Under the pieces are notes generated by a model, which was given only the letters and a program-made list of their open reading frames with translations, was not told where the DNA came from and ran no database searches. The position numbers and the translations under genes are program-made. A stretch of DNA of 64,000 nucleotides, taken from positions 507-64,506 of the forward strand of contig JAICMG010000003.1 in NCBI GenBank assembly GCA_025929365.1, written 5' to 3'. Origin of the DNA: Frankiaceae bacterium (GTDB taxonomy: Bacteria; Actinomycetota; Actinomycetes; JAFAQI01). The stretch's first letter is position 1. Each line of letters begins with the position of its first letter. Shown one piece after another: positions 24,240-35,164 of this stretch.

Positions 24240-24438
24240 CTCGACCCGCGAGGTAGCCCAGCAACTCCACCTGTCACCGCTCACCGTGCAGGACCACCTG
24301 AAGTCGATCTTCGCGAAGACGGGCGTGCGCACCCGACGAGAGCTCGTATCGCGGATCTTCGTCGACCACTACGAGCCACACCTCAAGGTCGGGGCCACCC
24401 CCACCTCGAGCGGCTACTTCCCGGCGGCCGGTGACTGA
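24240..24438 (+). pseudogene. LuxR-family HTH C-terminal fragment (no receiver/N-terminal domain)
   Basis: Only ...SERDVTELVVRGHSTREVAQQLHLSPLTVQDHLKSIFAKTGVRTRRELV... is recognisable. The upstream part of the track ORF is antisense to the NTF2 remnant. Confidence 0.5.
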
Positions 24439-24449
24439 CCCCGTCGTTC

Positions 24450-24473
24450 TGTAGGAACCGACTGGACTTGTCC
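24450..24473. repeat. Tn7-like left-end terminal inverted repeat (plus a subterminal yTGTCC repeat at 24509-24515)
   Basis: 16 of 24 positions match the right end, including the terminal TGTAGG and the internal TGTCC. Confidence 0.8.
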
Positions 24474-25025
24474 TAGGCCGAGCGTGGCCGGGACACCGTT
24501 CCACGTTAGTTGTCCAGGGAATTCCGCGGATAGATGCCCATTCCCCTCTTCGAGCTCGCCAACAGTGCGTTGCAACGCGTTCCGCACGGCAACCGTCTCC
24601 TGCCCGACCGCAACGTTCTTGCCAGGCATCAATACCCCTGCCCGTCGTCACAACACTCGGGGCGCTCTCACACGAACTGGACCGACGTAAGGGGGACGGG
24701 TCCGTAGCAGGCTCCCCGTGCGAGACTCCCAGCCGCAACCTGTGACGGCGGTGCCGGAGGTGTCGAAGGCTGGGGCAAGTACTGCCCGCTACGCGCGCGG
24801 GTGGGGCGCGGTCGCGCGCTAGAGGAGCGACGCGGTCGCGCTTGCTCACGTTGCCCAAGCCGAAGGATTCGGGAAGGACCGATTCGTACGATGGCCGTGC
24901 TAGGCGTGGCGCTGGTCATCGGCGCGCCCATCGTCTCTGTCCTCGCTGGCTTCGCGTTGACGAGGTGGACGGGTGTCGGCGCGAACGAGCTATTTTGGCG
25001 TGGCCTTGTCTGGCGCAGGCATGTG

Positions 25026-25301
25026 ATGGATCTTCCGCCCGTGGTCGAGAACTATCAGTGGACGTCGTTCCCTGAGGCCGCGCGGTATCTCGGGCTTGCC
25101 GAAAGGCGGCTCCGCGCATCGGTCTCGGCGGGAGTCCTCAAGCGAGCAACTAACTATGCGGGCGAGGTGGGCGTCACCCGCTCCTCCATCGAGCGGGAGC
25201 TGGAATGGCGCCGGAACTCGACAAGGAAGGACCGGGCGCGGCGGGCAGCACTTATCGCCCTTTCCGTCTTGTTCGGGCCCTACAAAGACTATCGTCGGTA
25301 A
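25026..25301 (+). CDS. Excisionase/AlpA-like helix-turn-helix protein (element cargo)
   Basis: WTSFPEAARYLGLAERRLRASVSAGVLKRATNYAGEVGVTRSSIERELEWRR resembles Xis/AlpA-type HTH proteins. An alternative longer start at 24891 adds a TM helix. Confidence 0.4.
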   Translation: MDLPPVVENYQWTSFPEAARYLGLAERRLRASVSAGVLKRATNYAGEVGVTRSSIERELEWRRNSTRKDRARRAALIALSVLFGPYKDYRR

Positions 25302-25417
25302 CTGCCGTTGTAAGACGGGTGCCCGTGCGGCAGAAGCCGCCTCGCATGACCCACGCGTCGTGGCCAACTTTCCGCCACGCAATGGCAGAGTCGCGGCGTG
25401 TCGTGCCCGCGACGACA

Positions 25418-26371
25418 TCAGCGGCTGTATCTCTGCCGGTGGTCGAAGTAAAGCTGTCCGATCACGAGACTCCATGACTGATGTGGTCGCTGAGCACACG
25501 CCGCAACCGCCGCGCTTGTGAAAGCAGTCCGCAGCCGTTCAGATGCCGGACGCCCTGACGATTTACCACCACGCAGCGTGTTGAGGACAGTACTAGCTTC
25601 GGCCAACCGGGTCGTGGCGGGAAAGGCCAGAAACCCCCGGCAGGTACCTAGTTGACGACCAGATAGGCCTAGACCTCCCAAGGGCGGCTGTGAAGTGGCG
25701 ACTTCGTTGGCGGGAGGCGCGACGACGTGCACGGCGGTCCCGAAGTCGGACAACTGTTCAGTGATGTCCGCAGAGCGACCGCTCCCGGTGCCGGTCAGAT
25801 GGAGTTGCCGAAGTCGGCCCTCCTGATCGATCCATATCGTGATGGTGCCGACTACCCCGGGGCCCCACGCGCGAAGGCGCCCGCTAAGCTCGGTAGTTGA
25901 GACGTCGCCCAGTGAGGTCTTTCCCCTAGACGTTACTCCCAACAGTCGGTGGCTGAGTGAGCTCAACGTTGTTACCGGATCGCCTAGGACGTCTAGCAAC
26001 CCACCCAGCGCCGGCCGATTGGCGGCAGAGGAGACACGTAGCCACGTGGGGCCGCCGCTTCCAGCAGCGTTTGTGCGCGAGATATACGTCGTCGCGCCGA
26101 CGATGATCAGCCGCGCCGTCTGACCCGCCGCGACAATCTTCAGATCCGCACGTTTGGAGGCCCAGTCCACCACTCCCGCGCCGCGAAAGGCCTGCGCCGC
26201 GCGACCCTCGTCATGCACAGTGCCGGCTACCGACATCCGGAAGCTATGCGCTGCGGACAGGGCCGAAGACACGCCGACCAACAACGTCTGTGAGCCCTGG
26301 TTGCCGTTCGGGCTTGCTCCGCATCCCGCGACCATCGCGCCGGCAATACTCATGGCAACGGCGGGCCCCAT
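25418..26371 (-). CDS. Putative lipoprotein (element cargo)
   Basis: MGPAVAMSIAGAMVAGC has a signal peptide with a VAGC lipobox. The 3' part of the ORF is low-GC and may be non-coding read-through. Confidence 0.5.
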   Translation of the reverse strand: MGPAVAMSIAGAMVAGCGASPNGNQGSQTLLVGVSSALSAAHSFRMSVAGTVHDEGRAAQAFRGAGVVDWASKRADLKIVAAGQTARLIIVGATTYISRTNAAGSGGPTWLRVSSAANRPALGGLLDVLGDPVTTLSSLSHRLLGVTSRGKTSLGDVSTTELSGRLRAWGPGVVGTITIWIDQEGRLRQLHLTGTGSGRSADITEQLSDFGTAVHVVAPPANEVATSQPPLGGLGLSGRQLGTCRGFLAFPATTRLAEASTVLNTLRGGKSSGRPASERLRTAFTSAAVAACAQRPHQSWSLVIGQLYFDHRQRYSR

Positions 26372-26403
26372 CCGGCGGTGCAAGAATCGAACACCTACCT
26401 TCG

Positions 26404-26664
26404 CTAACACTCAGCCATCCCAGAATTTGCTCCTGAAGAACGATAACGCTCGAGGACAGGTCGGCGGGCCGAATCCGCGCTCCGGGCGTAGTACGCCGGC
26501 AACAGCCCGGAAATCACGGAAGCACCTTGCCCTACTCCGAGCACCGTCCCGACAGTCAGGTGAAAGCCGACCAATCCACCTGCTCCGGAAGAGCAGGCGT
26601 TGGGGAAACGCAACGCCCGTAGGCAATCACCCACGATGAAGTCAACGCACCGGCCCCTCCCCAA
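26404..26664 (-). CDS. Small ORF immediately downstream of the RHS toxin tip; candidate immunity protein
   Basis: Its position is the only evidence. An 86-aa ORF starts 1 nt after the toxin stop and has a hydrophobic segment. Confidence 0.2.
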   Translation of the reverse strand: MGRGRCVDFIVGDCLRALRFPNACSSGAGGLVGFHLTVGTVLGVGQGASVISGLLPAYYARSADSARRPVLERYRSSGANSGMAEC

Positions 26665-27957
26665 TCACACGCGCCAGGGCCGCGAGTGCCATAGACCGCC
26701 ATCTGAGGAAACGACCTTGTACTCATTATCGGAATGCCCTAAGATCCTCCACTGCCATTTCGGGTAAAAGAAGACCAGAGTTCTCTCTTCTTCGTAGATT
26801 GTCCTTACCGAGGAGTAGCCAGACCGACATTCGTGGTACTGATTGCATTCGGTCCAAGTTTCCTCCTGAAACTCAACAGCTTCGCGCGTTTGGTGCCGTT
26901 GGTTGAACGCTAACTCTAAAATGACGTCACAGCCGGGACAGGAATCACCCTCGGCCTCTTTTTCAGAACTGTCTCTCCAGGGCCCGATGACGTCATATTT
27001 ATCTTGAAGCTGCATTATAGGAGTGGTCTGTTTCCAGACCGCTTTCGCGCGGCGGTGGTGGATGGGCCGAGGGGCCGTCCCAGACAAGCCGCCCCCTGAA
27101 TCGCCGACCACAGAGGTGCCGTCGAGGTCAAAGCTGTTGACAGGATCTTGGTTGCAGTAGTCGTAGTCATTGGCGCTACCGCCGGAGACCGGATCCACCG
27201 TGGTGAAGCGGCCCAGGTACGGGTCGTAGACCCGTTCGCCCATACTGACCAGCCCAGCGAGGCCGCCGGAATCTCGACGTTTGCCCCCTAGCCAACCGTA
27301 GTTGGCCGGATGCGTCGTATCGGCGGCGCGCGGTACGCCGAACTCCGTGCTCTCGAAGTAAGCCGTCATCGAGGGCGTCCCGGTTGGCGGGTCAGTGAGG
27401 GTAGCGATCACGTCGCCGTGAGGATTGACGATCTGCAGCGCGACGGAATCCGCGCGAGGCGCTTCGGCGCTCTGGTGGTAGTGGGTTCGGATCGCCGCGA
27501 GGTTTCCGGCGATATCGGTGTAGTTGGTCGTCGACGAGCCGTCGGAGCCGACGATCGACGATGCTGAGTCGCCCGGATCCGCGTAGATGTTGGTGGTGGT
27601 GAGACCTGTCGCGCTGCTCCCCTGTGACAGGATTCGACCCGCAGGGTCGAGATTGAATGTGTCGGTGTTGGTGCCGTCGTTCTCGCTGCGGACCATACCG
27701 TCGGCGTAGTAACTGAGGGCGACGCTACCCGTCCCGCCGACGGCGGTGTCCGTTGCTGGAAGAGCGGTGATGCGGCCCATCGGGTCGTAGGTGTAGCCGG
27801 CATTGGTGATGTGGTCAGCCGAATCGTGCGACCAGTAGGTCGTGGTTGGCGTGGTCGCCGTGGAACAAAGACCGTTGCTGCTGGGATACGTGACCAGAGC
27901 CGAGTCATACGCCTGCTGGTCTGAGCGCGGGCACCGGCTGCCGGACTGAGCCCTTCG
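26665..27957 (-). CDS. Orphan RHS/YD-repeat C-terminal fragment ending in an uncharacterised polymorphic-toxin domain
   Basis: YD repeats (YTYDPMGRITAL...). RHS core end motif GRFTTVDPVSGGSANDYDYCNQDPVNSFDLDGT. It ends in a ~160-aa low-GC tip (…CPGCDVILELAF…YHECRSG…). The frame opens right after a TAA at ~27958; the first ATG is at 27780. The N-terminal >1000 aa of a normal RHS protein are missing. Confidence 0.75.
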   Translation of the reverse strand, partial: RRAQSGSRCPRSDQQAYDSALVTYPSSNGLCSTATTPTTTYWSHDSADHITNAGYTYDPMGRITALPATDTAVGGTGSVALSYYADGMVRSENDGTNTDTFNLDPAGRILSQGSSATGLTTTNIYADPGDSASSIVGSDGSSTTNYTDIAGNLAAIRTHYHQSAEAPRADSVALQIVNPHGDVIATLTDPPTGTPSMTAYFESTEFGVPRAADTTHPANYGWLGGKRRDSGGLAGLVSMGERVYDPYLGRFTTVDPVSGGSANDYDYCNQDPVNSFDLDGTSVVGDSGGGLSGTAPRPIHHRRAKAVWKQTTPIMQLQDKYDVIGPWRDSSEKEAEGDSCPGCDVILELAFNQRHQTREAVEFQEETWTECNQYHECRSGYSSVRTIYEEERTLVFFYPKWQWRILGHSDNEYKVVSSDGGLWHSRPWRV

Positions 27958-28652
27958 TTAAGTAGCGGGCGCAGATCAAGGCCGACCAGGAGCAGGGTTA
28001 CTGGCAGGGTGTTTACGAGTGATTTGAAGTGGTTCGCAACCTCTCGGTCGTCGCGACGGGCCATGTTGAGGAAGTGAGCCTCGTCAACGATGAGGAGCTT
28101 CGTTTCACAGGCCAGCACACAATCAGCCGCGCGGAACATGAGGTCGGTTGCGGTAGCGCGATGTCCGCCGGGGTGCGCGTAGAACCGGCACAGCATCGAA
28201 CTGAACGCCTTGGTCGTCGTGTTGCCGGCCAGCGTGACATGGGCAACTGGTATCCGCACATCGCCCGAGGCGGTGTGCGTTCCGTAGGCCTCGATCTGCT
28301 GGCGATGGAAGTCCCGGCCGAACGTCTCTGCGATCGTGGACTTCCCCACGCCGGCAACTGCGTCGACCGCTGCGCTGGTGCGCACGCGGTGGCCGTCCTG
28401 ACGATTCGACGCGAGCAACAGACGGAGACGGCGGTGAACCGCGTGCATCTGGGGAGTCCTGATGGGGCCGAGATTGGCGTGCCAGTATGCCCGCAGGTCG
28501 TCGTAGCGAGTGCGCTCGGCCCTGCCCATGCGTTTGAGCTCCGCGGGCTCATATGTCGCCGGCCTGACCGGAGGCGTGCGGTCGCAATACTTGAACCAAT
28601 CCTCCTTCACGTTCAAGTTGAGAAGGCACTCGGGGTTCTGTCGCGTGTTCAT
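27950..28652 (-). pseudogene. tnsC: tnsC/tniB-like AAA+ transposition ATPase, C-terminally truncated at the RHS junction
   Basis: Walker A VAGVGKSTIAETF and Walker B LLIVDEAHFL are present. Homology stops at ...LVGLDLRPLLNEGL (~27950). Beyond that the track ORF reads the RHS DNA in another frame. Confidence 0.7.
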
Positions 28653-30727
28653 ATCGCGATGTCCAGGGTGTCGGCGTAGTAGTCAGCCTCGTCCAACTCT
28701 TCGTCGTCGACCTCGAGATCCGGTTCGGCAAAGCCAAGGGTGGCCTCATCCGGCTCGATCCGCCCGGTCGGTCCAGTGGACGGGGTACTCGCATCGCCGT
28801 CCAGCCCGAGCGTCCGCAGATGAAGCGCCTGCTGGAGGGCAATCCGCTTCTCGGGCCGGCCTTCTGCGGCGCCTTGGCGCCACCTTTCGACGTGCTCCTG
28901 GATGACGCGGAGGACGTCGTCGTGACGCCCGGTCTTGATCGCCACCTGCTTAGCGAAGTTGAGCGCGTCGAGCGAGAACGGTCCGCCGAGAACGTGGCGG
29001 TGCGTCCAGTCGAGCCGATGCCAGAGGTGCATTTCATCGTCGGCGTCCTGAAAGTAGACCTGGCGAATGTCGTTGGGGTCGTAGCGAATCGGCCACTTGC
29101 CCCTGTGCACACCGCCATACTTGCTCCGGGTATTGACGAGGTCTTCAAGTACCGCTCCCTGGTAGCGGAGCCCGTGCAGCTCGACTCCGTACCTCTGGAT
29201 GCTGCGCCATGCTGTCGGCAAGAAGTCGAAGGCCAGATCCCAGTCGGTCAGGATCCGCAGGTACCCGGCCTTGGTCAGGGCGTACTCGTGCATCTCCAGC
29301 GGAGAGATTGCGACGCCTGGCGCTTCGGGTATGACCAGCCCAGAGTGCGGACGTCGGTGGTAGACCTCAGCAATCCACCCTCGGATGATGGCGTCGAGCT
29401 CATGGATGAAGTAGACCGCCGTCTTCTCGACATCGAGGCCGCGGCTATAGACATCGGGCCCCTTATAACCTGGCAGGGTCTCGAGCAGATCCTCGCGGAG
29501 CGTTCGGAAGAACCGCTCAACCGGGGCCTTGTCAGTCGGCGTGTAGGGCCTTCCGGGCTGGATCGAGATGCCGAGCCGCGCACACACCGACTTCACGTGC
29601 TCTGAGATGAAGACCTTTCCGTGGTCGATCACGATTGTGTCGACCACGTCAACCGACTGCCGCTCCGTCGTGTCGTCGCTATCGATGTGAATCACGGTGT
29701 TCGGTACACCGGAGTACGGCCCCTCGCTCATCGTTGCACCAGGGTGCGGGCTTGGATGGATCGTTTCGTAAAGAACAGCGGCAACGTCCACGGCCTTCGT
29801 TGATACGGGTCGCAAGCACATGCCGACGATGCGCCTATCGCAAAGATCCATCGCGACGGTGAGCTCTGCCTCCACCCAGCGTTCGGTGATCGGGTCGATC
29901 CCGAAAACATCGAGCCGAGTCGTGTCCAGCAGGACGTACTCGCCTGGTCTGGTTGCGACGAGGCGCGAGTACATGACGCGTGGGCCGTTCGCGATCGAGC
30001 GCTTCTGCTTCGTCGAACCTCGGAAGGCATTGGTGCCCTTCGTGAGTCGGTCGAGAGCCTTGTACGCAGTCGACGTCGGCGGGCACAGCACAACGCCGGG
30101 GCCGTATTGCGTATCGAGGCGTTCCTCAACGAGCTGCAAGACACGCTTCTTGGTCGGCCTGCTCCGGTTTGTGTGCTCAGCCAGGACGGCCCGCACGGCA
30201 TCGGTCCACCTGGTGTCGATGTCACGGCCGGCGTTGCCGTTGCGTCCGCGCCGGCGATCAACGAGGCCCTCAACCCCACGATCGCGGTACAGGCGCACCC
30301 AGCGGCGAAGCGCTCGTTCCGTCATGTCGAGTTCGGTGGCCTTTGCGAGAAGGCGTTCACCCCACGGCCGCTTCGGGTCGTACTCAGGTCGGGGGTCAGT
30401 GGCATCCGGGTCATCCGGTCGGGGCAGTCCCTGGATGAGTTCGTCAAGGTGGGCGGCGCGCATGATCGCCTGCGCTTCAACCTCCGGCGGGAGATTGGAC
30501 ATCAGCGGGCCAATCCCAGCTGACTTAGGACGTGAGACAGGACTAACGGAGAAGGTCGGGTCACTGAGCAGAGTCGACGTCAAGATGACGCAACGCCGAC
30601 CCGTCCATGACTGCAGGGTCGTACGCCTGCCGTCCAAACCAACGACTTGGTACGCGTCGCCGTCGTAGTAGACGGTAACGCCGACGCTGAACGTTTGAAC
30701 CGATTCCATGGCGCGGTCACCCTTCAC
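28649..30727 (-). CDS. tnsB: TnsB/TniA-like DDE transposase (Mu-transposase/integrase core)
   Basis: 692-aa protein with an rve-like DDE core (…VLLDTTRLDV…, …IVIDHGKVFISEHV…) and a Mu-transposase C-terminal region. Confidence 0.8.
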   Translation of the reverse strand: MKGDRAMESVQTFSVGVTVYYDGDAYQVVGLDGRRTTLQSWTGRRCVILTSTLLSDPTFSVSPVSRPKSAGIGPLMSNLPPEVEAQAIMRAAHLDELIQGLPRPDDPDATDPRPEYDPKRPWGERLLAKATELDMTERALRRWVRLYRDRGVEGLVDRRRGRNGNAGRDIDTRWTDAVRAVLAEHTNRSRPTKKRVLQLVEERLDTQYGPGVVLCPPTSTAYKALDRLTKGTNAFRGSTKQKRSIANGPRVMYSRLVATRPGEYVLLDTTRLDVFGIDPITERWVEAELTVAMDLCDRRIVGMCLRPVSTKAVDVAAVLYETIHPSPHPGATMSEGPYSGVPNTVIHIDSDDTTERQSVDVVDTIVIDHGKVFISEHVKSVCARLGISIQPGRPYTPTDKAPVERFFRTLREDLLETLPGYKGPDVYSRGLDVEKTAVYFIHELDAIIRGWIAEVYHRRPHSGLVIPEAPGVAISPLEMHEYALTKAGYLRILTDWDLAFDFLPTAWRSIQRYGVELHGLRYQGAVLEDLVNTRSKYGGVHRGKWPIRYDPNDIRQVYFQDADDEMHLWHRLDWTHRHVLGGPFSLDALNFAKQVAIKTGRHDDVLRVIQEHVERWRQGAAEGRPEKRIALQQALHLRTLGLDGDASTPSTGPTGRIEPDEATLGFAEPDLEVDDEELDEADYYADTLDIAI

Positions 30728-31448
30728 GAGTTGGATTGGTCAACACGCTGGTGTGGTCGATCCAGACCGTGAGATCTGTCTGTAAGTGCTGTAGCCACAG
30801 TGCGTGCAATAGCGCCGGCCGCACGGCCGGCTTCGAGTAATCACGAGACAAGCGCGACTCAAGCGCTCCGATCGTGTCGCCGAGTTGCCACGCCTCGACC
30901 ACGCGATCGACGAGATCCGCCGACACTGATGCGCTCCGCCGATACCCGGCCAGAAATCTGACGTTCGTCGCGACGACCAGGTCGACGCCTGTCCACAACT
31001 CGTGACCCCAACCGCGGGACCCCAGCGACTCGTCGATTGCGTCAAAATCGGGACGATGAGGCGCCCGTGGTCTGCGATTCCAGTCCGGCGGCTTGACGTT
31101 GACGACAACCACCTCGCCGTTTCGACGGCGTAGCAGGTAGTCAGGAATGTGCTTACGCGGGCGCGCGTCCCGGTCTATGTACTCGAGGCAAAAAGGCTGC
31201 GCCGCGATCGCCACGACCGTCGGGTCAAAGTCGGCGAGTTGAAGCCGAAGCAGCTCAAGACGACTCTCGTAGAGCACGTGAGTGCGTGTCGTTGCGGTCC
31301 AGTACTCACCCGGATGATGGCGCTGCCCGTGATACGAGGCAGGCACCCGAATGGGAGCGCCTTCGAACAACGACGCAGTGTCGATTGTCCGTAGCAAGGC
31401 ATCCACAATCTCGCCCCGCGAGTCCCGGTATCTGATCTTCGTGTCCAT
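30717..31448 (-). CDS. tnsA: TnsA-like endonuclease
   Basis: TnsA N-terminal endonuclease motifs YESRLELLRL... and HIPDYLLRRRNGEVVVVNVKP (E/D/K catalytic triad). Confidence 0.75.
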   Translation of the reverse strand: MDTKIRYRDSRGEIVDALLRTIDTASLFEGAPIRVPASYHGQRHHPGEYWTATTRTHVLYESRLELLRLQLADFDPTVVAIAAQPFCLEYIDRDARPRKHIPDYLLRRRNGEVVVVNVKPPDWNRRPRAPHRPDFDAIDESLGSRGWGHELWTGVDLVVATNVRFLAGYRRSASVSADLVDRVVEAWQLGDTIGALESRLSRDYSKPAVRPALLHALWLQHLQTDLTVWIDHTSVLTNPTREG

Positions 31449-31639
31449 TCCAAACCTCCGTGATGGCCGTAGCGTTTATGCCAAACACGGACGTTAGATT
31501 GGGGTCTGGACCAAGCGTTTGTGCGCATTGAAAGTCCGGCGTGTCGCGCCATCGCGACACAGAAGATCCGGCGACCACCGACAAAACCGGCGACGACACA
31601 ACTACGGTTACGGGGCGAATCCCGAAGAGGAGGTAGGGC

Positions 31640-32092
31640 GTGCCCAAGCCGCGACGGCCTCTGCCAAGAGACCTCGTTCGTGGGTCATGGCCAAACGGCG
31701 TCCCGATCGACCCCGCGAGCGGAATCGCGATGCTGCAATCATTTGTAAGTCGCATTCGCGAGGAGACCTCCGGCATGTCTTCTCGCGCCGTCGGGGACGC
31801 AATCGGCGTACCTGCCTCGACGATCATCCGGATCTTCACGGGGACTGGCTGGCCCGATTGGTACACCTGGACTCAGCTGGAGTTGAAATTCGGTGCCTTG
31901 GCCCCGAACAAGCCAAGCACGGCCGGAACGTGCTGCGCGCTCAGATCAGCGACCGGCGAGGACGGCCGCTGCGGTCTGCAAGACATCAATGGCCGTCGGC
32001 CACTCAGGCGAACCACGACCGAGGTACAGGCCGCAGCGACCATGCCCTCCCGAAAAGGGCGAAAGAAGCCGGAAGGCGCGCGCTCGTCATAG
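31640..32092 (+). CDS. XRE/Cro-like HTH protein inside the transposon right end
   Basis: Strong RBS aagaggagg, then GTG at 31640. HTH segment MSSRAVGDAIGVPASTIIRIFTG. The C-terminal part is low complexity. Confidence 0.45.
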   Translation: MPKPRRPLPRDLVRGSWPNGVPIDPASGIAMLQSFVSRIREETSGMSSRAVGDAIGVPASTIIRIFTGTGWPDWYTWTQLELKFGALAPNKPSTAGTCCALRSATGEDGRCGLQDINGRRPLRRTTTEVQAAATMPSRKGRKKPEGARSS

Positions 32093-32164
32093 GCACGGAT
32101 ATCCGTGGAGGCCGGCCAACTGCCCGAGAACGCGGACAAGTAGCGGACATGCACGGCGAGATAC

Positions 32165-32188
32165 GGACAGGTTCCTCGGGAACCTACA
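32165..32188. repeat. Tn7-like right-end terminal inverted repeat; three subterminal CGGACA(A/T/G)G repeats at 32128-32170 are candidate TnsB-binding sites
   Basis: Read directly from the sequence. Confidence 0.8.
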
Positions 32189-32195
32189 CGTTCCC

Positions 32196-34781
32196 CTAGT
32201 TGTGCGGCATGTCGACGAAACGGGAGTAGTGCAGCTGCGAGGAGACGACGACGTCTTTCGTCGGACCGTTTCGGTGCTTGGCCACGATCAGGTCCGCCTC
32301 GCCGGCGCGCGGTGACTCCTTCTCGTAGTAGTCGTCGCGGTGGAGCAGGATCACCATGTCGGCGTCCTGCTCGATCGCGCCGGACTCGCGAAGGTCGGAC
32401 AACTGCGGGCGCTTGTCCGACCGCTGCTCGGCACCACGGTTCAGCTGGCTGACCGCAACGACCGGTACGGCCAGCTCCTTTGCGAGCAGTTTGAGCGACC
32501 TGCTCATCTCCGCGACTTCCTGCTGTCGGTTCTCCACGCGCTTCGGGCTGGTCATCAGCTGCAGGTAGTCAACCGCGACCAACCTCAGGTCGTGGCGCTG
32601 CTTGAGCCGACGCGCTTTGGCGCGGATCTCCATCATGTTCATGTTCGGCGAATCGTCGATGAACATCGGTGCCGAGGCAACCTCACCCATACGACGGGCC
32701 AGCTTGTTCCAGTCGTCGTCGTTGAGCGAACCAGTTCGGATCCTCGTCAGCGGAATCCGGGCTTCGGCCGCGAGCAGCCGCATGGTGATCTCGCTCTTCC
32801 CCATTTCCAGCGAGAACAGAACCGCCGCCTGACCGTGACCGATGCTTGCACTGCGGAGAAAGTCCATCGCGAGCGTGCTGTTGTGCGTCGGTATCAATGA
32901 TCGACCGGCGAGATACATGTGGTCGGCGTTATCGATCTGAACGCACCTGACCGGCACCGATTCGACCTTGCGCACCTGAGTGATGAAGCGCGTCGAGGCG
33001 CGGTGATTCGGCCGACGCCGCCGTTCCTTGTGAGCGAGTCGCTTGCGCTCGAGTGCGAACACCTCGCCCTCAGTGGTGAACGTCAGCGTGTAGGCGATTG
33101 AAGACGCAGCGGTGCGTCCCTTGACCTTCTTCTCGAACACGGCGCAGCGGTACCCGAGACTGACGATGAGTTCGCGGACGTCATCGGCGAGCCGTCGACT
33201 CGTCGAGGTGAACTGCACCGAGCCGCTGTGCATCACGGTCCCGTCAGTGTCGAGGAGGCCCGCTAGGAGGCTGCGGCGCTGCGCCTCGGACGCACGGAGG
33301 TACGCCACCGGAATGTGCTTGTTGCCCAGCACGCCGAGCGTCCGCAGCTGGCCCTTGAAAGTCCCGTACGCGGACCAGCATGGTCGGCACAAGCCGTAAC
33401 CGGTCGACGCCGGGCCGCCGCAACGTGGACACGTGGGCGCTGGCACGGAGCCGCTCGTCATCGGGGCCTTCCCACCACACGATCTGCCACACGTCCGAAC
33501 CTGAGTCGTCCGGGGCAGGAAGACCTTCCCGCACACAGCGCACGTCTTCTGGCTGGTCACCGGCTCGCCGTGCAAGCGGACCGAGTACTGAAGCCTTCCG
33601 GCGAGCTTGGTGACGTGGTAGCCCTCGGCCTCTATGTACATCGCGATCTCCGGATCGGCTGATGTGTAGCGGCCACCCGCACTATGGCCGTCGCCGAGCC
33701 AGACGCCAAGCGTGTACGGGGCGATCAAGAGATCATCGCGATGAGGAAGTTCGAGCGGTTCCGCCACCGCGACGGCATGGTTCAGCCGACGATCCGCGGT
33801 GGGGCAGTGGACGGTGGCGGCGATCTCACCCGTTGTGCAGACTGCGGAGCCAGTGGAACGAGGCAGGCCCTCCTCCTGAGCCGCCCGGCGCGACCGGCGG
33901 GTCTGCGTCAGCCATTGGTGCTGCTCGTCGGCGACGATGACCGTGCCGTCGTCGAAATGCACCTCGTAGCAGGGCCGGTCCGTCATGACCTCGGTCGCAG
34001 CAACAACTCTCGTCGGACGTCCGTCGGCGCCGATCAGGACGTCGCCGACCGCGACCTCGCCCATCGTCGTCCAGCCCGTGGGCGTCGCCAGCGGAGTATC
34101 GAGTGCCAGCGCCTTGCCCTGCCCGGGACGTCCGGCGACGACGATGAGCTGGCCGTCGTGCAAGCCGTTGGTCAGCTCGTCGAGGTCGCGGAAGCCGGTC
34201 GGCACTCCGAACAGCTCGCCGCCACGGTTTCCGATCGCCTCGATCTCGTTGTACGTCGCCCACATCGCGGCCTCGAGCCCGATGTAGTCCTCGCTGGTCC
34301 GCCGCTCGACCACCTCGTAGACGGCCTGCTGCGCGCGGTCGACAACGTCGTCGACCTCTCCGCCCATGCCGCTCGCCGCGCCGTACCCGAGCTGCACCAC
34401 CTTCGTGCCGGCCTCGACGAGCCGCCGCAGAATCGCACGCTCGCGGATGATCTCCGCGTAGTAGCCGGCGTTGGCGGCGGTCGGAACCGACGCGATCAAC
34501 GTGTGGAGATACGGCGCGCCGCCGATCCGCTCGAGCGATCCGCCACGGGTCAGCTCGGCGGCGACGGTCACCGGGTCGGCCGGCTCACCCTTGCCGTACA
34601 GCTCGAGGATCGCGTCGTACACGATCTGATGCGCCGGGCGGTAGAAGTCGGTGGGCCGCAGCACCTCGACGACGTCGGCGATCGCGTCCTTCGACAGCAG
34701 CATGCCGCCGAGCGCGCACTGCTCCGCCGCGATGTCCTGCGGCGGCGTGCGGTCCAGCTCGATGTTTCCGCCGCTCGGCAT
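32196..34781 (-). CDS. dnaB: Replicative DNA helicase DnaB, interrupted by an intein in the P-loop
   Basis: N-terminal ...PPQDIAAEQCALGGMLL. The Walker A GRPGQGK|...|STLAMDF is split by a 411-aa insertion. The C-terminal RecA-like domain is intact. ATG at 34781. Confidence 0.9.
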   Translation of the reverse strand: MPSGGNIELDRTPPQDIAAEQCALGGMLLSKDAIADVVEVLRPTDFYRPAHQIVYDAILELYGKGEPADPVTVAAELTRGGSLERIGGAPYLHTLIASVPTAANAGYYAEIIRERAILRRLVEAGTKVVQLGYGAASGMGGEVDDVVDRAQQAVYEVVERRTSEDYIGLEAAMWATYNEIEAIGNRGGELFGVPTGFRDLDELTNGLHDGQLIVVAGRPGQGKALALDTPLATPTGWTTMGEVAVGDVLIGADGRPTRVVAATEVMTDRPCYEVHFDDGTVIVADEQHQWLTQTRRSRRAAQEEGLPRSTGSAVCTTGEIAATVHCPTADRRLNHAVAVAEPLELPHRDDLLIAPYTLGVWLGDGHSAGGRYTSADPEIAMYIEAEGYHVTKLAGRLQYSVRLHGEPVTSQKTCAVCGKVFLPRTTQVRTCGRSCGGKAPMTSGSVPAPTCPRCGGPASTGYGLCRPCWSAYGTFKGQLRTLGVLGNKHIPVAYLRASEAQRRSLLAGLLDTDGTVMHSGSVQFTSTSRRLADDVRELIVSLGYRCAVFEKKVKGRTAASSIAYTLTFTTEGEVFALERKRLAHKERRRRPNHRASTRFITQVRKVESVPVRCVQIDNADHMYLAGRSLIPTHNSTLAMDFLRSASIGHGQAAVLFSLEMGKSEITMRLLAAEARIPLTRIRTGSLNDDDWNKLARRMGEVASAPMFIDDSPNMNMMEIRAKARRLKQRHDLRLVAVDYLQLMTSPKRVENRQQEVAEMSRSLKLLAKELAVPVVAVSQLNRGAEQRSDKRPQLSDLRESGAIEQDADMVILLHRDDYYEKESPRAGEADLIVAKHRNGPTKDVVVSSQLHYSRFVDMPHN
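32880..34112 (-). other. DnaB intein (Ala1, C-terminal HN, +1 Ser; class-3-like) with a LAGLIDADG homing-endonuclease domain and a Cys4 zinc ribbon
   Basis: The intein spans ALALDTPL...LIPTHN. Splicing would restore GRPGQGKSTLAM. LAGLIDADG motifs are LGVWLGDGHS and LLAGLLDTDGTV. Trp-67, Cys-390 (block F) and Thr-409 fit a WCT triad. Cysteine clusters are CAVCGK...CGRSCGG and CPRCGG...CRPC. Confidence 0.8.
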
Positions 34782-35164
34782 CGGTACGACTTCGCCGATG
34801 CTCACGCCGTCGACCCTCCCGATTACCCCGTGTGACGTCAGCCAAGGACAGCAGCCCCCACCGACAGTCCGTGACGCTAAGCGGCGAAGCGGCCCAACTC
34901 CACGCTCGGGCCGGACGGATCGCCCGGCGCTGTGGGGAGGGTTGTGGGCGGGATGTGAACAACCCGCGATTCGCGGTGCACAGCCTCTGGACAGCGCCGT
35001 GGATAACACCGGTGACCAACCCGCGACACACCCTCTGACCTGCAAAAACGGTCATCCACGGGTGTGGGGCGCAAAAACCTGCCGAGCAAACCCGCAATGA
35101 ACGGCGCATGGCCGCCGTTCGTGGCACGTGGCGCTGGCTGGTTGCGTCCCGACGCCGGTATCGC

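What the first reader, a model, noticed from the sequence alone, without database searches (positions are those of the whole stretch)
26404..27957. Orphan RHS C-terminal cassette with an unclassified low-GC toxin tip and a possible immunity ORF, carried as transposon cargo
The fragment has YD repeats and the RHS core terminus (…GRFTTVDPVSGGSANDYDYCNQDPVNSFDLDGT). The terminus is followed by a ~160-aa C-terminal domain (…SCPGCDVILELAF…TECNQYHECRSG…WQWRILGHSDNEYKVVSSDGGLWHSRPW). I cannot assign this domain to a known toxin family. Its DNA is visibly AT-richer than the surrounding genome. The N-terminal >1000 aa of a normal RHS protein are missing, so this is an orphan tip of the kind that serves as a recombination reservoir for polymorphic toxins. 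An 86-aa ORF starts 1 nt after its stop, which is the classic immunity-gene position. Finding this inside a Tn7-like element suggests transposon-mediated spread of a toxin/immunity module.
Basis: partly seen in the sequence, partly recalled or inferred. Interest (0 to 1): 0.65.

Follow-up and report, generated by a model that had tools for sequence, protein, structure and literature searches.

The report
Truncated RHS toxin remnant inside defective transposon
This is the leftover tail end of a large RHS toxin gene, carrying a toxin-like tip with no known relatives; an internal deletion fused it to a broken transposon gene, so it is a silent relic of an ordinary kind rather than a working toxin/immunity module.

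Summary
On the minus strand, 27900..26665 encodes about 254 aa of RHS shell ending in the RHS core terminus (TIGR03696, E=2e-13). A 157-aa tail follows, and its last ~120 aa sit in a 51% GC island (core 64%, window 68%). The tail has a coding codon signature. It has no homolog in 1.84 billion cluster representatives, Pfam, PDB, plasmids, phages or metagenome contigs, and AlphaFold models are unusable (pLDDT 38-43).

The fragment does lie inside a Tn7-like element. I mapped it to 24450..32188, with TGTAGG ends and a 5-bp target duplication (GAACG), inserted 7 nt after the dnaB stop, as in related loci. The element is defective: tniB is cut at about codon 250 and joined directly to the RHS fragment at ~27900, and tniQ is missing. 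The cassette is therefore a deletion product.

The 86-aa "immunity" ORF has no codon periodicity, no clear best frame and no family match. It does not share the low GC of the tip, and an independent gene caller skipped it, so it is probably spurious.

Relatives show classical main-rhs plus orphan arrays, mostly with unclassifiable tips. Verdict: an ordinary orphan RHS C-terminal cassette with a singleton tip, and of low to moderate interest.

The parts
24450..32188 (-). Defective Tn7-like element (7,739 bp). It is flanked by 5-bp target-site duplications: CGTTC at 24445-24449 on the + strand, which is GAACG at 32193-32189 on the - strand.
   Evidence: the 11-mer CGTTC|TGTAGG occurs once in the window, about 0.015 expected by chance. 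The same TGTAGG...CCTACA ends, a 5-bp TSD and insertion at the dnaB 3' end are seen in L004/L005 and L007.
32100..32188 (-). Left end: terminal TGTAGG, 7 nt after the dnaB stop, followed by three A(C/T)(C/T)TGTCCG-like repeats that are putative TnsB-binding sites.
24450..24530 (+). Right end: terminal TGTAGG with two (A/G)(C/G)TTGTCC repeats. The first repeat is at the same offset (16) as in the left end.
31640..32092 (+). Element-encoded HTH protein, divergent from tnsA. It is 57% identical to the N-terminal part of a 291-aa protein at the same position in L007.
30717..31448 (-). tnsA (actinobacterial TnsA-like endonuclease subunit).
   Evidence: NF033179, E=3.7e-60, 203 bits against a cut-off of 110.
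28649..30727 (-). tnsB (DDE transposase with a Mu-transposase C-terminal domain).
   Evidence: Pfam Mu-transpos_C, rve_3 and HTH_28. Relatives are 683-710 aa.
27903..28652 (-). Truncated tniB/tnsC: about 250 of ~370 codons. The listed 414-aa ORF then continues out of frame through the RHS DNA to 27408.
   Evidence: The Pfam TniB match covers profile positions 11-162 of 189. In the alignment with six intact homologs, similarity ends after ...AQTSRRMT.
27895..27905 (.). Deletion or illegitimate-recombination junction between tniB and the 3' part of an rhs gene.
   Evidence: TniB homology ends near 27903. RHS homology starts at 27900 (tblastn with P0008).
27139..27900 (-). RHS shell fragment (~254 aa) that includes the core terminus.
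   Evidence: The codon-model score is +0.29 in frame.
27139..27255 (-). RHS core terminus VYDPYLGRFTTVDPVSGGSANDYDYCNQDPVNSFDLDGT, the demarcation and putative autoproteolysis region.
   Evidence: TIGR03696 match and invariant columns in alignment A1.
27040..27138 (-). Linker of the tip, rich in Gly, Ser, Pro and Arg, at 69% GC.
26668..27039 (-). Low-GC (51%) variable C-terminal domain of ~124 aa. It is rich in Trp, Glu and aromatic residues and carries CPGC...CNQYHEC. It belongs to no known family.
26404..26664 (-). 86-aa ORF (TTG start), probably non-coding spacer.
25418..26410 (-). Lipoprotein gene with lipobox VAGC. It matches the SCO4651 lipoprotein family partially and below cut-off, and resembles LppX/LprAFG only faintly. 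It is the first convincing gene downstream of the tip.
   Evidence: NF053532, E=2.8e-14, 53 bits against a cut-off of 65. PF07161, E=0.1. Codon model.
24801..25301 (+). 166-aa ORF of unknown function next to the right end. It has a predicted membrane segment and faint excisionase-like HTH matches.

Best explanation
The locus is a silent orphan remnant of an RHS polymorphic-toxin gene, lying inside a decayed Tn7-like transposon.

Shown:
- A Tn7-like element of an actinobacterial family that inserts just downstream of dnaB occupies 24450-32188, with intact ends and a matching 5-bp duplication.
- Inside it, tniB stops at about codon 250 and is joined at ~27900 to the last ~254 codons of an RHS shell plus its C-terminal variable domain.
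- tniQ is gone.

Inferred:
- One internal deletion or illegitimate recombination removed the 3' third of tniB, all of tniQ and the 5' part (more than 1000 codons) of an rhs gene or orphan cassette that the element carried as cargo.
- The surviving tip is most likely a toxin domain. It is a 51% GC, clearly coding, ~124-aa domain placed right after the conserved ...DPVNSFDLDGT demarcation. It would have been acquired horizontally by the tip-swapping typical of RHS loci.
- In its present state the tip cannot be delivered. It has no N-terminal secretion or delivery region, no complete shell and no recognisable ribosome-binding site before the ATG at 27780, and it is overlapped by the out-of-frame tail of tniB.
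- It could act only as a silent recombination substrate, offering about 760 bp of core homology, if a compatible full-length rhs gene exists elsewhere in the genome.
- The 86-aa ORF is most likely not a gene, and the cognate immunity gene has probably been lost or was never retained.
For: - RHS identity: TIGR03696 at E=2.1e-13. The closest relatives are all annotated as RHS repeat-associated proteins, at 64-40% identity.
- Truncation and junction: TniB homology ends at about aa 250 of 367-372, and RHS homology begins at 27900.
- Intact relatives have tnsA-tnsB-tniB followed by a tniQ of 800-930 aa.
- Element ends and TSD.
- The tip is coding but foreign. GC1/2/3 is 0.52/0.42/0.59. The codon model gives -0.06 in frame against -0.55 and -0.86 when shifted.
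- Relatives show the classical main-rhs plus orphan-array layout, with 3 core termini in L010 and 6 in L009. Their tips are diverse: Phage_lysozyme2 in P0007 and P0009, phospholipase A2 in P0018, and none assignable in 7 of 10.
- ORF86 is not gene-like.
- The sequence before ATG 27780 (ctacgacccgATG) has no Shine-Dalgarno element. [quoted passage not shown]
Against: - The RHS frame is intact over 412 codons with no stop or frameshift, and the tniB remnant is also undamaged. Either the deletion is recent or something maintains the frame, so 'silent relic' is not proven.
- No toxin activity, fold or catalytic motif could be assigned to the tip.
- The pre-deletion structure is inferred, not observed.
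- The source is a single contig that appears to be a metagenome-assembled genome, judging from its closest relatives. No second assembly covers the tniB-rhs junction or the tip.
Confidence: 0.62

Rival explanations
1. The cassette is an active orphan reservoir. It is kept because it can recombine, through its ~760 bp of conserved core sequence, with a full-length rhs gene elsewhere in the same genome, and so replace that gene's toxin tip. The immunity gene would be ORF86 or the lipoprotein.
For: Orphan arrays of closely related fragments sit behind main rhs genes in L009 and L010. The RHS frame is fully intact. Tip switching by orphan recombination has been shown in Salmonella (PMC3967940).
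Against: No full-length rhs or second RHS core lies in the 64-kb window. There is no credible immunity gene. The fragment's 5' boundary is a junction with tniB, not the usual orphan boundary behind a main gene. Nothing can be said about the rest of the genome.
Confidence: 0.2
2. The tip and a downstream antidote work as an internal toxin-antitoxin (addiction) pair that stabilises the transposon, as described for Salmonella rhs orphans expressed from internal promoters.
For: PMC7043789 shows that rhs orphan toxin/immunity pairs can act as type II TA loci. Tn7-like cargo is enriched in TA modules (PMC8649781). The ORF86 stop and the lipoprotein GTG start overlap (GTGTTAG), which is compatible with translational coupling.
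Against: The scan found no promoter-like site in 24300-28100, although sigma-70 consensus scans mean little in high-GC actinobacteria. There is no Shine-Dalgarno element before ATG 27780. ORF86 lacks a coding signature. A lipoprotein exported to the envelope is an unlikely antidote for a cytoplasmic toxin.
Confidence: 0.08
3. The C-terminal 157 aa are not a toxin domain. They would be an open stretch of foreign or degenerate DNA joined to the RHS core, with no function, or a product of mis-assembly in a metagenome.
For: It is a singleton among 15 billion proteins. AlphaFold confidence is very low. The GC step coincides exactly with the stop codon, and an independent Logan contig ends exactly there, at 26673.
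Against: The in-frame codon signal clearly beats the other five frames. 157 open codons in 51-55% GC DNA are unlikely by chance: (61/64)^157 is about 5e-4 for one frame. The position, length and low GC are typical of RHS tips. Seven of 10 relatives also have tips that cannot be assigned. The lineage is poorly sampled, since the nearest RHS and TniB relatives are only 64% identical.
Confidence: 0.1

Closest known systems
Orphan rhs-CT/rhsI modules of Enterobacteria (Dickeya dadantii, Salmonella Typhimurium, E. coli; PMC3150448, PMC3967940)
   Same: A 5'-truncated rhs fragment that keeps core-encoding homology upstream of the demarcating motif. An unrelated, lower-GC C-terminal domain follows. 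There is no evident translation start.
   Different: It is not behind a full-length rhs gene. Its 5' boundary is a fusion to a truncated transposon gene. No credible immunity gene follows. The demarcating motif is DLDGT in this actinobacterial clade rather than PxxxxDPxGL. The host is a high-GC actinobacterium without a T6SS context.
Actinobacterial rhs loci with orphan arrays seen in metagenome contigs L009 and L010
   Same: The same RHS clade (about 30-40% identity over the core). The terminus is of the same type, ...GGSANDYDY..DP.N.FDLDGT, and the tips are diverse and mostly unclassifiable. In L010 the low GC extends over the tip.
   Different: Those loci have a 1778- or 2041-aa main gene followed by 2-5 orphans, each with small downstream ORFs that share the low GC (L010). 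The window has one isolated fragment, and its GC returns to the local level at the stop codon.
Isolated orphan P0006 in L002 (closest relative, 64% identity)
   Same: It is also a lone RHS fragment of ~350 aa, truncated at almost the same point (…GYTYDPMGR…), with no main rhs nearby and an unclassified tip.
   Different: It sits in an ordinary chromosomal context, between a glutaredoxin-like gene and DUF349/hem genes, with no transposon. Its tip is unrelated and is followed by a plausible two-TM 94-aa ORF.
Tn7-like transposons with TnsD-type target selectors (Tn7 at glmS; actinobacterial clade noted in PMC8649781)
   Same: TnsA, TnsB and the AAA+ TnsC/TniB are present. The terminal repeats begin with TGT, there is a 5-bp target duplication, and insertion is oriented a few bp past the stop codon of an essential conserved gene. 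Intact relatives have a long TniQ with several HTH domains.
   Different: The target is the dnaB 3' end rather than glmS. The copy in the window lacks tniQ and a third of tniB, so it cannot move by itself.

Membership tests
RHS / YD-repeat polymorphic toxin | RHS repeat-associated core domain at the end of the shell | tested here: met
   TIGR03696: E=2.1e-13, 50.6 bits against a cut-off of 32.5, aa 206-280 of the 430-aa frame.
RHS / YD-repeat polymorphic toxin | Long array of YD/RHS repeats forming a closed shell (usually more than 700 aa) | tested here: not met
   Only about 254 aa of shell remain. Pfam RHS_repeat and TEN_YD-shell give no hit at E<=0.01. RHS homology starts at 27900.
RHS / YD-repeat polymorphic toxin | N-terminal secretion or delivery region | tested here: not met
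   The frame closes at 27957, and the sequence upstream of 27900 is tniB.
RHS / YD-repeat polymorphic toxin | Variable C-terminal domain directly after the conserved core terminus | tested here: met
   157 aa follow ...FDLDGT. They are unrelated to the tips of 10 relatives.
Orphan rhs-CT/rhsI module | 5'-truncated fragment that keeps core homology and lacks translation initiation signals | tested here: met
   No Shine-Dalgarno element lies upstream of ATG 27780.
Orphan rhs-CT/rhsI module | Located downstream of a full-length rhs gene with which it shares core sequence | tested here: not met
   No other RHS match in the 64-kb window. The rest of the genome cannot be tested.
Orphan rhs-CT/rhsI module | Cognate immunity gene immediately downstream | tested here: inconclusive
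   ORF86 shows no codon periodicity, no clear best frame and no homologs, and was not called by a gene caller. The lipoprotein is a real gene but nothing links it to RHS tips. Binding was not testable.
Known toxin domain families (nuclease, deaminase, ART, lysozyme, lipase and others) | Significant sequence or fold match of the tip | tested here: not met
   Pfam at E<=10 gave none. PDB sequences: best E=1.9. PADLOC and PHROGs gave nothing significant. Foldseek against PDB: best E=1.6, on a model with pLDDT 43.
Tn7-like transposon | TnsA, TnsB, the TnsC/TniB ATPase and a TniQ/TnsD target selector | tested here: not met
   TnsA and TnsB are present and full length. TniB is truncated at about aa 250. 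No TniQ lies anywhere between the ends. Intact relatives have all four.
Tn7-like transposon | Terminal inverted repeats starting with TGT, internal transposase-binding repeats and a 5-bp target-site duplication | tested here: met
   TGTAGG at both ends, a TTGTCC repeat at offset 16 in both, and TSD GAACG. The same holds in L004/L005, with TSD GGACT.
Tn7-like transposon | Site- and orientation-specific insertion next to a conserved gene | tested here: met
   The left end lies 6-9 nt after the dnaB stop in the window, L004/L005 and L007.

The most novel reading that the evidence does not exclude
The ~124-aa low-GC tip (26668-27039) would be the founding member of an undescribed toxin family. It is Trp-rich, has a possible Cys4 metal or disulfide site (CPGC...CNQYHEC), and is weakly predicted as helices followed by a five-stranded meander. 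In addition, dnaB-targeting Tn7-like elements of Actinomycetota would carry rhs toxin cassettes between genomes, and the window would preserve a decayed example of this.
Probability: 0.15. Interest if true: 0.5.

Novelty: new member of a known kind. Interest (0 to 1): 0.3.

Why it matters
The practical value is small. It adds one more uncharacterised RHS tip to a large pool: 7 of the 10 nearest relatives also have tips that cannot be classified. It also documents how such cassettes become stranded, here by an internal deletion in a transposon. If the tip proved toxic it would define a new small toxin family, but with one sequence and no partner it is a weak starting point. The by-product is more useful: a Tn7-like family that inserts a few bases after the dnaB stop codon, forms tandem arrays there, and has clearly defined ends and target duplication. 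This helps to annotate actinobacterial genomes, and to avoid calling the 414-aa tniB-through-RHS ORF or the 86-aa ORF as genes.

Tried and rejected
1. Homologs of the tip. None were found in the word-indexed search, the full phmmer run over 1.84 billion representatives, GTDB genomes, JGI metagenome contigs, or plasmids and phages by tblastn. P0002 and P0003 are internally repetitive eukaryote-like proteins whose scores are inflated by 6-8 repeats, so I rejected them.
2. Structure. Two single-sequence AlphaFold runs gave pLDDT 38 and 43. Foldseek against PDB gave a best E of 1.6. No fold was assigned, and I ran no further fold searches because the model is unreliable.
3. Weak BLASTP hits of the tip to TniB proteins (E of 0.04 or more in an 79-sequence database), and the 'CPGCDV'/'CPECEV' coincidence with P0006. 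Both were rejected as noise, because the billion-scale search found nothing.
4. Lipoprotein as immunity. No relatives turned up in metagenome contigs and there was no PDB match. Only a sub-threshold SCO4651-family match and a faint LppX_LprAFG match were found. It was not found next to RHS genes in any fetched locus. This remains unresolved.
5. Close relatives of TnsB in GTDB genomes: none. Intact elements were reached through TniB homologs instead.
6. ORF166 against the right-end ORF of L005, and ORF86 against the ORF downstream of P0006: no similarity.
7. Rfam, tRNA and promoter/terminator scans of the region found nothing.
8. Generic repeat finding did not reveal the transposon ends. They were found only after the left end had been defined by comparison with relatives.
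Full report
What is at the coordinates

On the minus strand one frame is open from 27957 to the TGA at 26665-26667. NCBIfam TIGR03696, the RHS repeat-associated core domain, matches at E=2.1e-13 (50.6 bits, cut-off 32.5). A search with the core part returned 20 proteins, almost all labelled RHS repeat-associated protein, and the best is 64% identical. In an alignment of ten of them the terminus ...MG.R.YDP..GRF...DP..GGS.N.YDY...D..N..D..G is nearly invariant. By tblastn, RHS homology in the window runs from 27900 to about 27079, and there is no second RHS-like stretch anywhere in the 64 kb. The main rhs genes of relatives encode 1778 and 2041 aa, so well over 1000 codons are missing here.

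The tip

The 157 residues after ...FDLDGT consist of two parts. The first is a linker rich in Gly, Ser, Pro and Arg (27040-27138, 69% GC). The second is a ~124-aa segment (26668-27039) at 51% GC, against 64% for the RHS core and 68% for the whole window.

The segment looks coding. GC by codon position is 0.52/0.42/0.59. A codon model trained on 20 long genes of the window scores it at -0.06 in frame, against -0.55 and -0.86 in the shifted frames and -0.25 to -0.82 on the other strand.

The segment has no detectable relative:
- The word-indexed search of 5.8 billion clusters found nothing.
- Exhaustive phmmer over 1.84 billion representatives found only itself and two repeat-protein artefacts.
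- GTDB genomes, JGI metagenome contigs, plasmids and phages gave nothing.
- Pfam at E<=10, PADLOC, PHROGs and PDB sequences gave nothing significant.

Two single-sequence AlphaFold models have pLDDT 38 and 43. The better one shows helices followed by a five-stranded meander, and it has no Foldseek match in the PDB better than E=1.6. So the tip cannot be classified. This is normal for the clade: 7 of 10 close relatives also have tips without any Pfam domain, while the others carry Phage_lysozyme2 (P0007, P0009) or phospholipase A2 (P0018). The lineage is also thinly sampled, because the nearest RHS and TniB relatives are only 64% identical.

The transposon

Upstream on the same strand lie three transposition genes:
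- tnsA (30717-31448; NF033179, E=3.7e-60).
- tnsB (28649-30727; Mu-transposase C-terminal and integrase-core domains).
- An ORF (28652-27408) that is TniB only in its first ~250 residues.

Intact homologs of that TniB are 367-372 aa. In the alignment, similarity stops after ...AQTSRRMT, at about nucleotide 27903. The rest of the 414-aa ORF is the RHS DNA read out of frame.

The contexts of two homologs show the intact layout: dnaB (with an intein), then the element, which carries an HTH gene, tnsA, tnsB, tniB and a TniQ of 800-930 aa with several HTH domains.

Comparing the dnaB-proximal DNA defined the left end. In the window, in L004/L005 and in L007 the element begins with TGTAGG, 6-9 nt after the dnaB stop codon. 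In L004/L005 the matching right end, CCTACA, is followed by the same 5 bp (GGACT) that precede the left end.

Applying this rule to the window predicted CGTTC|TGTAGG on the plus strand. That 11-mer occurs once, at 24445-24455, about 0.015 expected by chance. Both ends also carry a TTGTCC repeat at offset 16.

The element is therefore 24450-32188 (7,739 bp), with a single matching target duplication. It contains the RHS fragment, the 86-aa ORF, a lipoprotein gene (25418-26410) and a 166-aa ORF (24801-25301, plus strand). 'Inside a Tn7-like element' is correct. However, the element has lost tniQ and a third of tniB, and the RHS fragment begins exactly where tniB ends. The simplest history is one internal deletion or illegitimate recombination that removed the tniB 3' end, tniQ and the 5' part of a cargo rhs gene or cassette. 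This history is inferred, not observed.

The proposed immunity ORF

The 86-aa ORF (26664-26404, TTG start) fills the gap between the RHS stop and the lipoprotein start. Several results argue against it being a gene:
- Its GC by codon position is flat (0.63/0.59/0.63), while genes here have GC3 of 0.71-0.83 and GC2 of 0.46-0.56.
- The codon model gives -0.22 in frame against -0.37 for the next frame. That is no real separation, whereas real genes differ by 0.5 or more.
- The window has 277 ORFs of 86 aa or more, far more than 64 kb can hold as genes (my estimate is roughly 60), so ORFs of this size are mostly noise in this high-GC DNA.
- GC returns to 60-63% right at the RHS stop, whereas in relative L010 the low GC of the tip continues over the downstream small ORFs.
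- There is no family match.
- The exact sequence is not among 15 billion predicted proteins, although its neighbours from the same contig are.
- An independent Logan contig, identical to window 25010-26673, contains the whole ORF, and its gene caller did not call it.

Absence of homologs alone would mean little, because the tip is itself a singleton. The compositional evidence is what counts. I consider the ORF probably spurious.

The lipoprotein is a real gene. It has the lipobox VAGC, a sub-threshold match to the SCO4651 lipoprotein family and a faint LppX/LprAFG resemblance. Nothing ties it to RHS tips.

How it works, most likely

The position after the conserved core terminus, the length, the foreign composition and the diversity of tips among relatives all fit a polymorphic-toxin C-terminal domain (established knowledge for RHS and CDI systems; PMC3150448, PMC3967940). 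In its present form it cannot be delivered:
- It has no N-terminal region.
- It has about 250 aa of shell instead of a closed cage.
- It has no Shine-Dalgarno element before ATG 27780.
- The tniB-derived frame runs across it.

It is therefore best described as a silent orphan remnant. It could still donate its tip by homologous recombination if a compatible full-length rhs exists elsewhere in the genome. That cannot be checked from this window.

Two facts keep this from being certain. The 412-codon frame is undamaged. And orphan rhs toxins can be expressed from internal promoters and act as toxin-antitoxin pairs in Salmonella (PMC7043789).

Comparison with what is known

The object matches the definition of an orphan rhs-CT in its 5' truncation, retained core homology, foreign tip and lack of start signals. 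It fails two usual features, namely a main rhs gene upstream and a recognisable immunity gene downstream. Classical arrays of the same clade exist in L009 (six core termini) and L010 (three). A second stranded orphan, cut at almost the same residue, exists in L002 without any transposon.

Two surveys of Tn7-like cargo and target selectors do not mention Rhs cargo or a dnaB attachment site in their main texts (PMC8649781, PMC10293859). The one supplement of PMC8649781 that was searched does not mention them either. Three other papers contain the terms Tn7-like, cargo and Rhs, but they were not opened. This is absence of mention, not proof of novelty.

Verdict

Its interpretation is right about the kind of object, wrong or unsupported about the immunity ORF, and too generous about transposon-mediated spread.

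The finding is a new member of a known kind: an orphan RHS C-terminal cassette with a singleton tip, stranded by a deletion in a defective transposon. Interest is low to moderate (0.3).

The most useful by-products are the mapped dnaB-targeting Tn7-like family and the warning that the 414-aa and 86-aa ORFs are artefacts.

The source appears to be an uncultured member of the Actinomycetota, possibly Mycobacteriales. This rests on the names attached to 90%-identity cluster mates of two housekeeping proteins.

Noticed in passing
window 24450-32188; L004/L005 6149-14513; L007 from position 50: A family of actinobacterial Tn7-like elements inserts 6-9 nt after the dnaB stop codon in the same orientation. 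The ends are TGTAGG...CCTACA with a 5-bp duplication, and the TnsD-like TniQ is 800-930 aa with LysR-type and other HTH domains. A dnaB attachment site is not mentioned in the main texts of two large Tn7 surveys.
   Followed up: partly
L004/L005 14518-16867 and from 16875: Tandem array at the dnaB site. A second, tns-less mini-element (LysR regulator, KptA-like PTS_2-RNA gene) directly abuts the first element. A third copy with the same left end starts 7 nt after it.
   Followed up: no
window 27408-28652 (-): The 414-aa ORF is an artefact. It is TniB for about 250 residues, followed by about 165 codons of RHS DNA read out of frame (a tail rich in Pro, Thr, Arg and Ser).
   Followed up: yes
window 26673 (L011 = window 25010-26673, 100% identical): An independent short-read assembly from run SRR22941857 confirms the ORF86-lipoprotein-ORF166 stretch. 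Its contig ends exactly at the RHS stop codon and GC step. This may reflect a graph branch (strain variants with different tips) or a coverage drop in the low-GC tip.
   Followed up: no
window 31640-32092 (+): A helix-turn-helix protein is encoded at the transposon left end, divergent from tnsA. It is 57% identical to the first 115 aa of a 291-aa protein at the same place in L007. It is only 150 aa here, so it may also be truncated.
   Followed up: partly
L002 8142-9224: The closest relative (P0006, 64% identity) is also a lone RHS fragment, cut at nearly the same residue (…GYTYDPMGR…). It lies between a glutaredoxin-like gene and DUF349/hem genes with no transposon. It has a Gly-rich, hydrophobic tip and a plausible two-TM 94-aa ORF downstream.
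   Followed up: partly
L009 1-12300; L010 1-10000: Classical actinobacterial rhs loci: a 1778- or 2041-aa main gene followed by arrays of orphan fragments (six and three core termini). Small ORFs lie between them, and in L010 the low GC spans both tip and downstream ORFs.
   Followed up: partly
window 32196-35045 (-): The replicative helicase gene dnaB carries an intein with a LAGLIDADG homing endonuclease (949 aa in total), as does its counterpart in L004/L005.
   Followed up: no
window 25418-26410 (-) and 24801-25301 (+): The remaining cargo of the defective element is a lipoprotein (lipobox VAGC, sub-threshold SCO4651-family match) and a 166-aa ORF with a hydrophobic segment and faint excisionase-like HTH matches. 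Neither has a known function or relatives in the fetched loci.
   Followed up: partly
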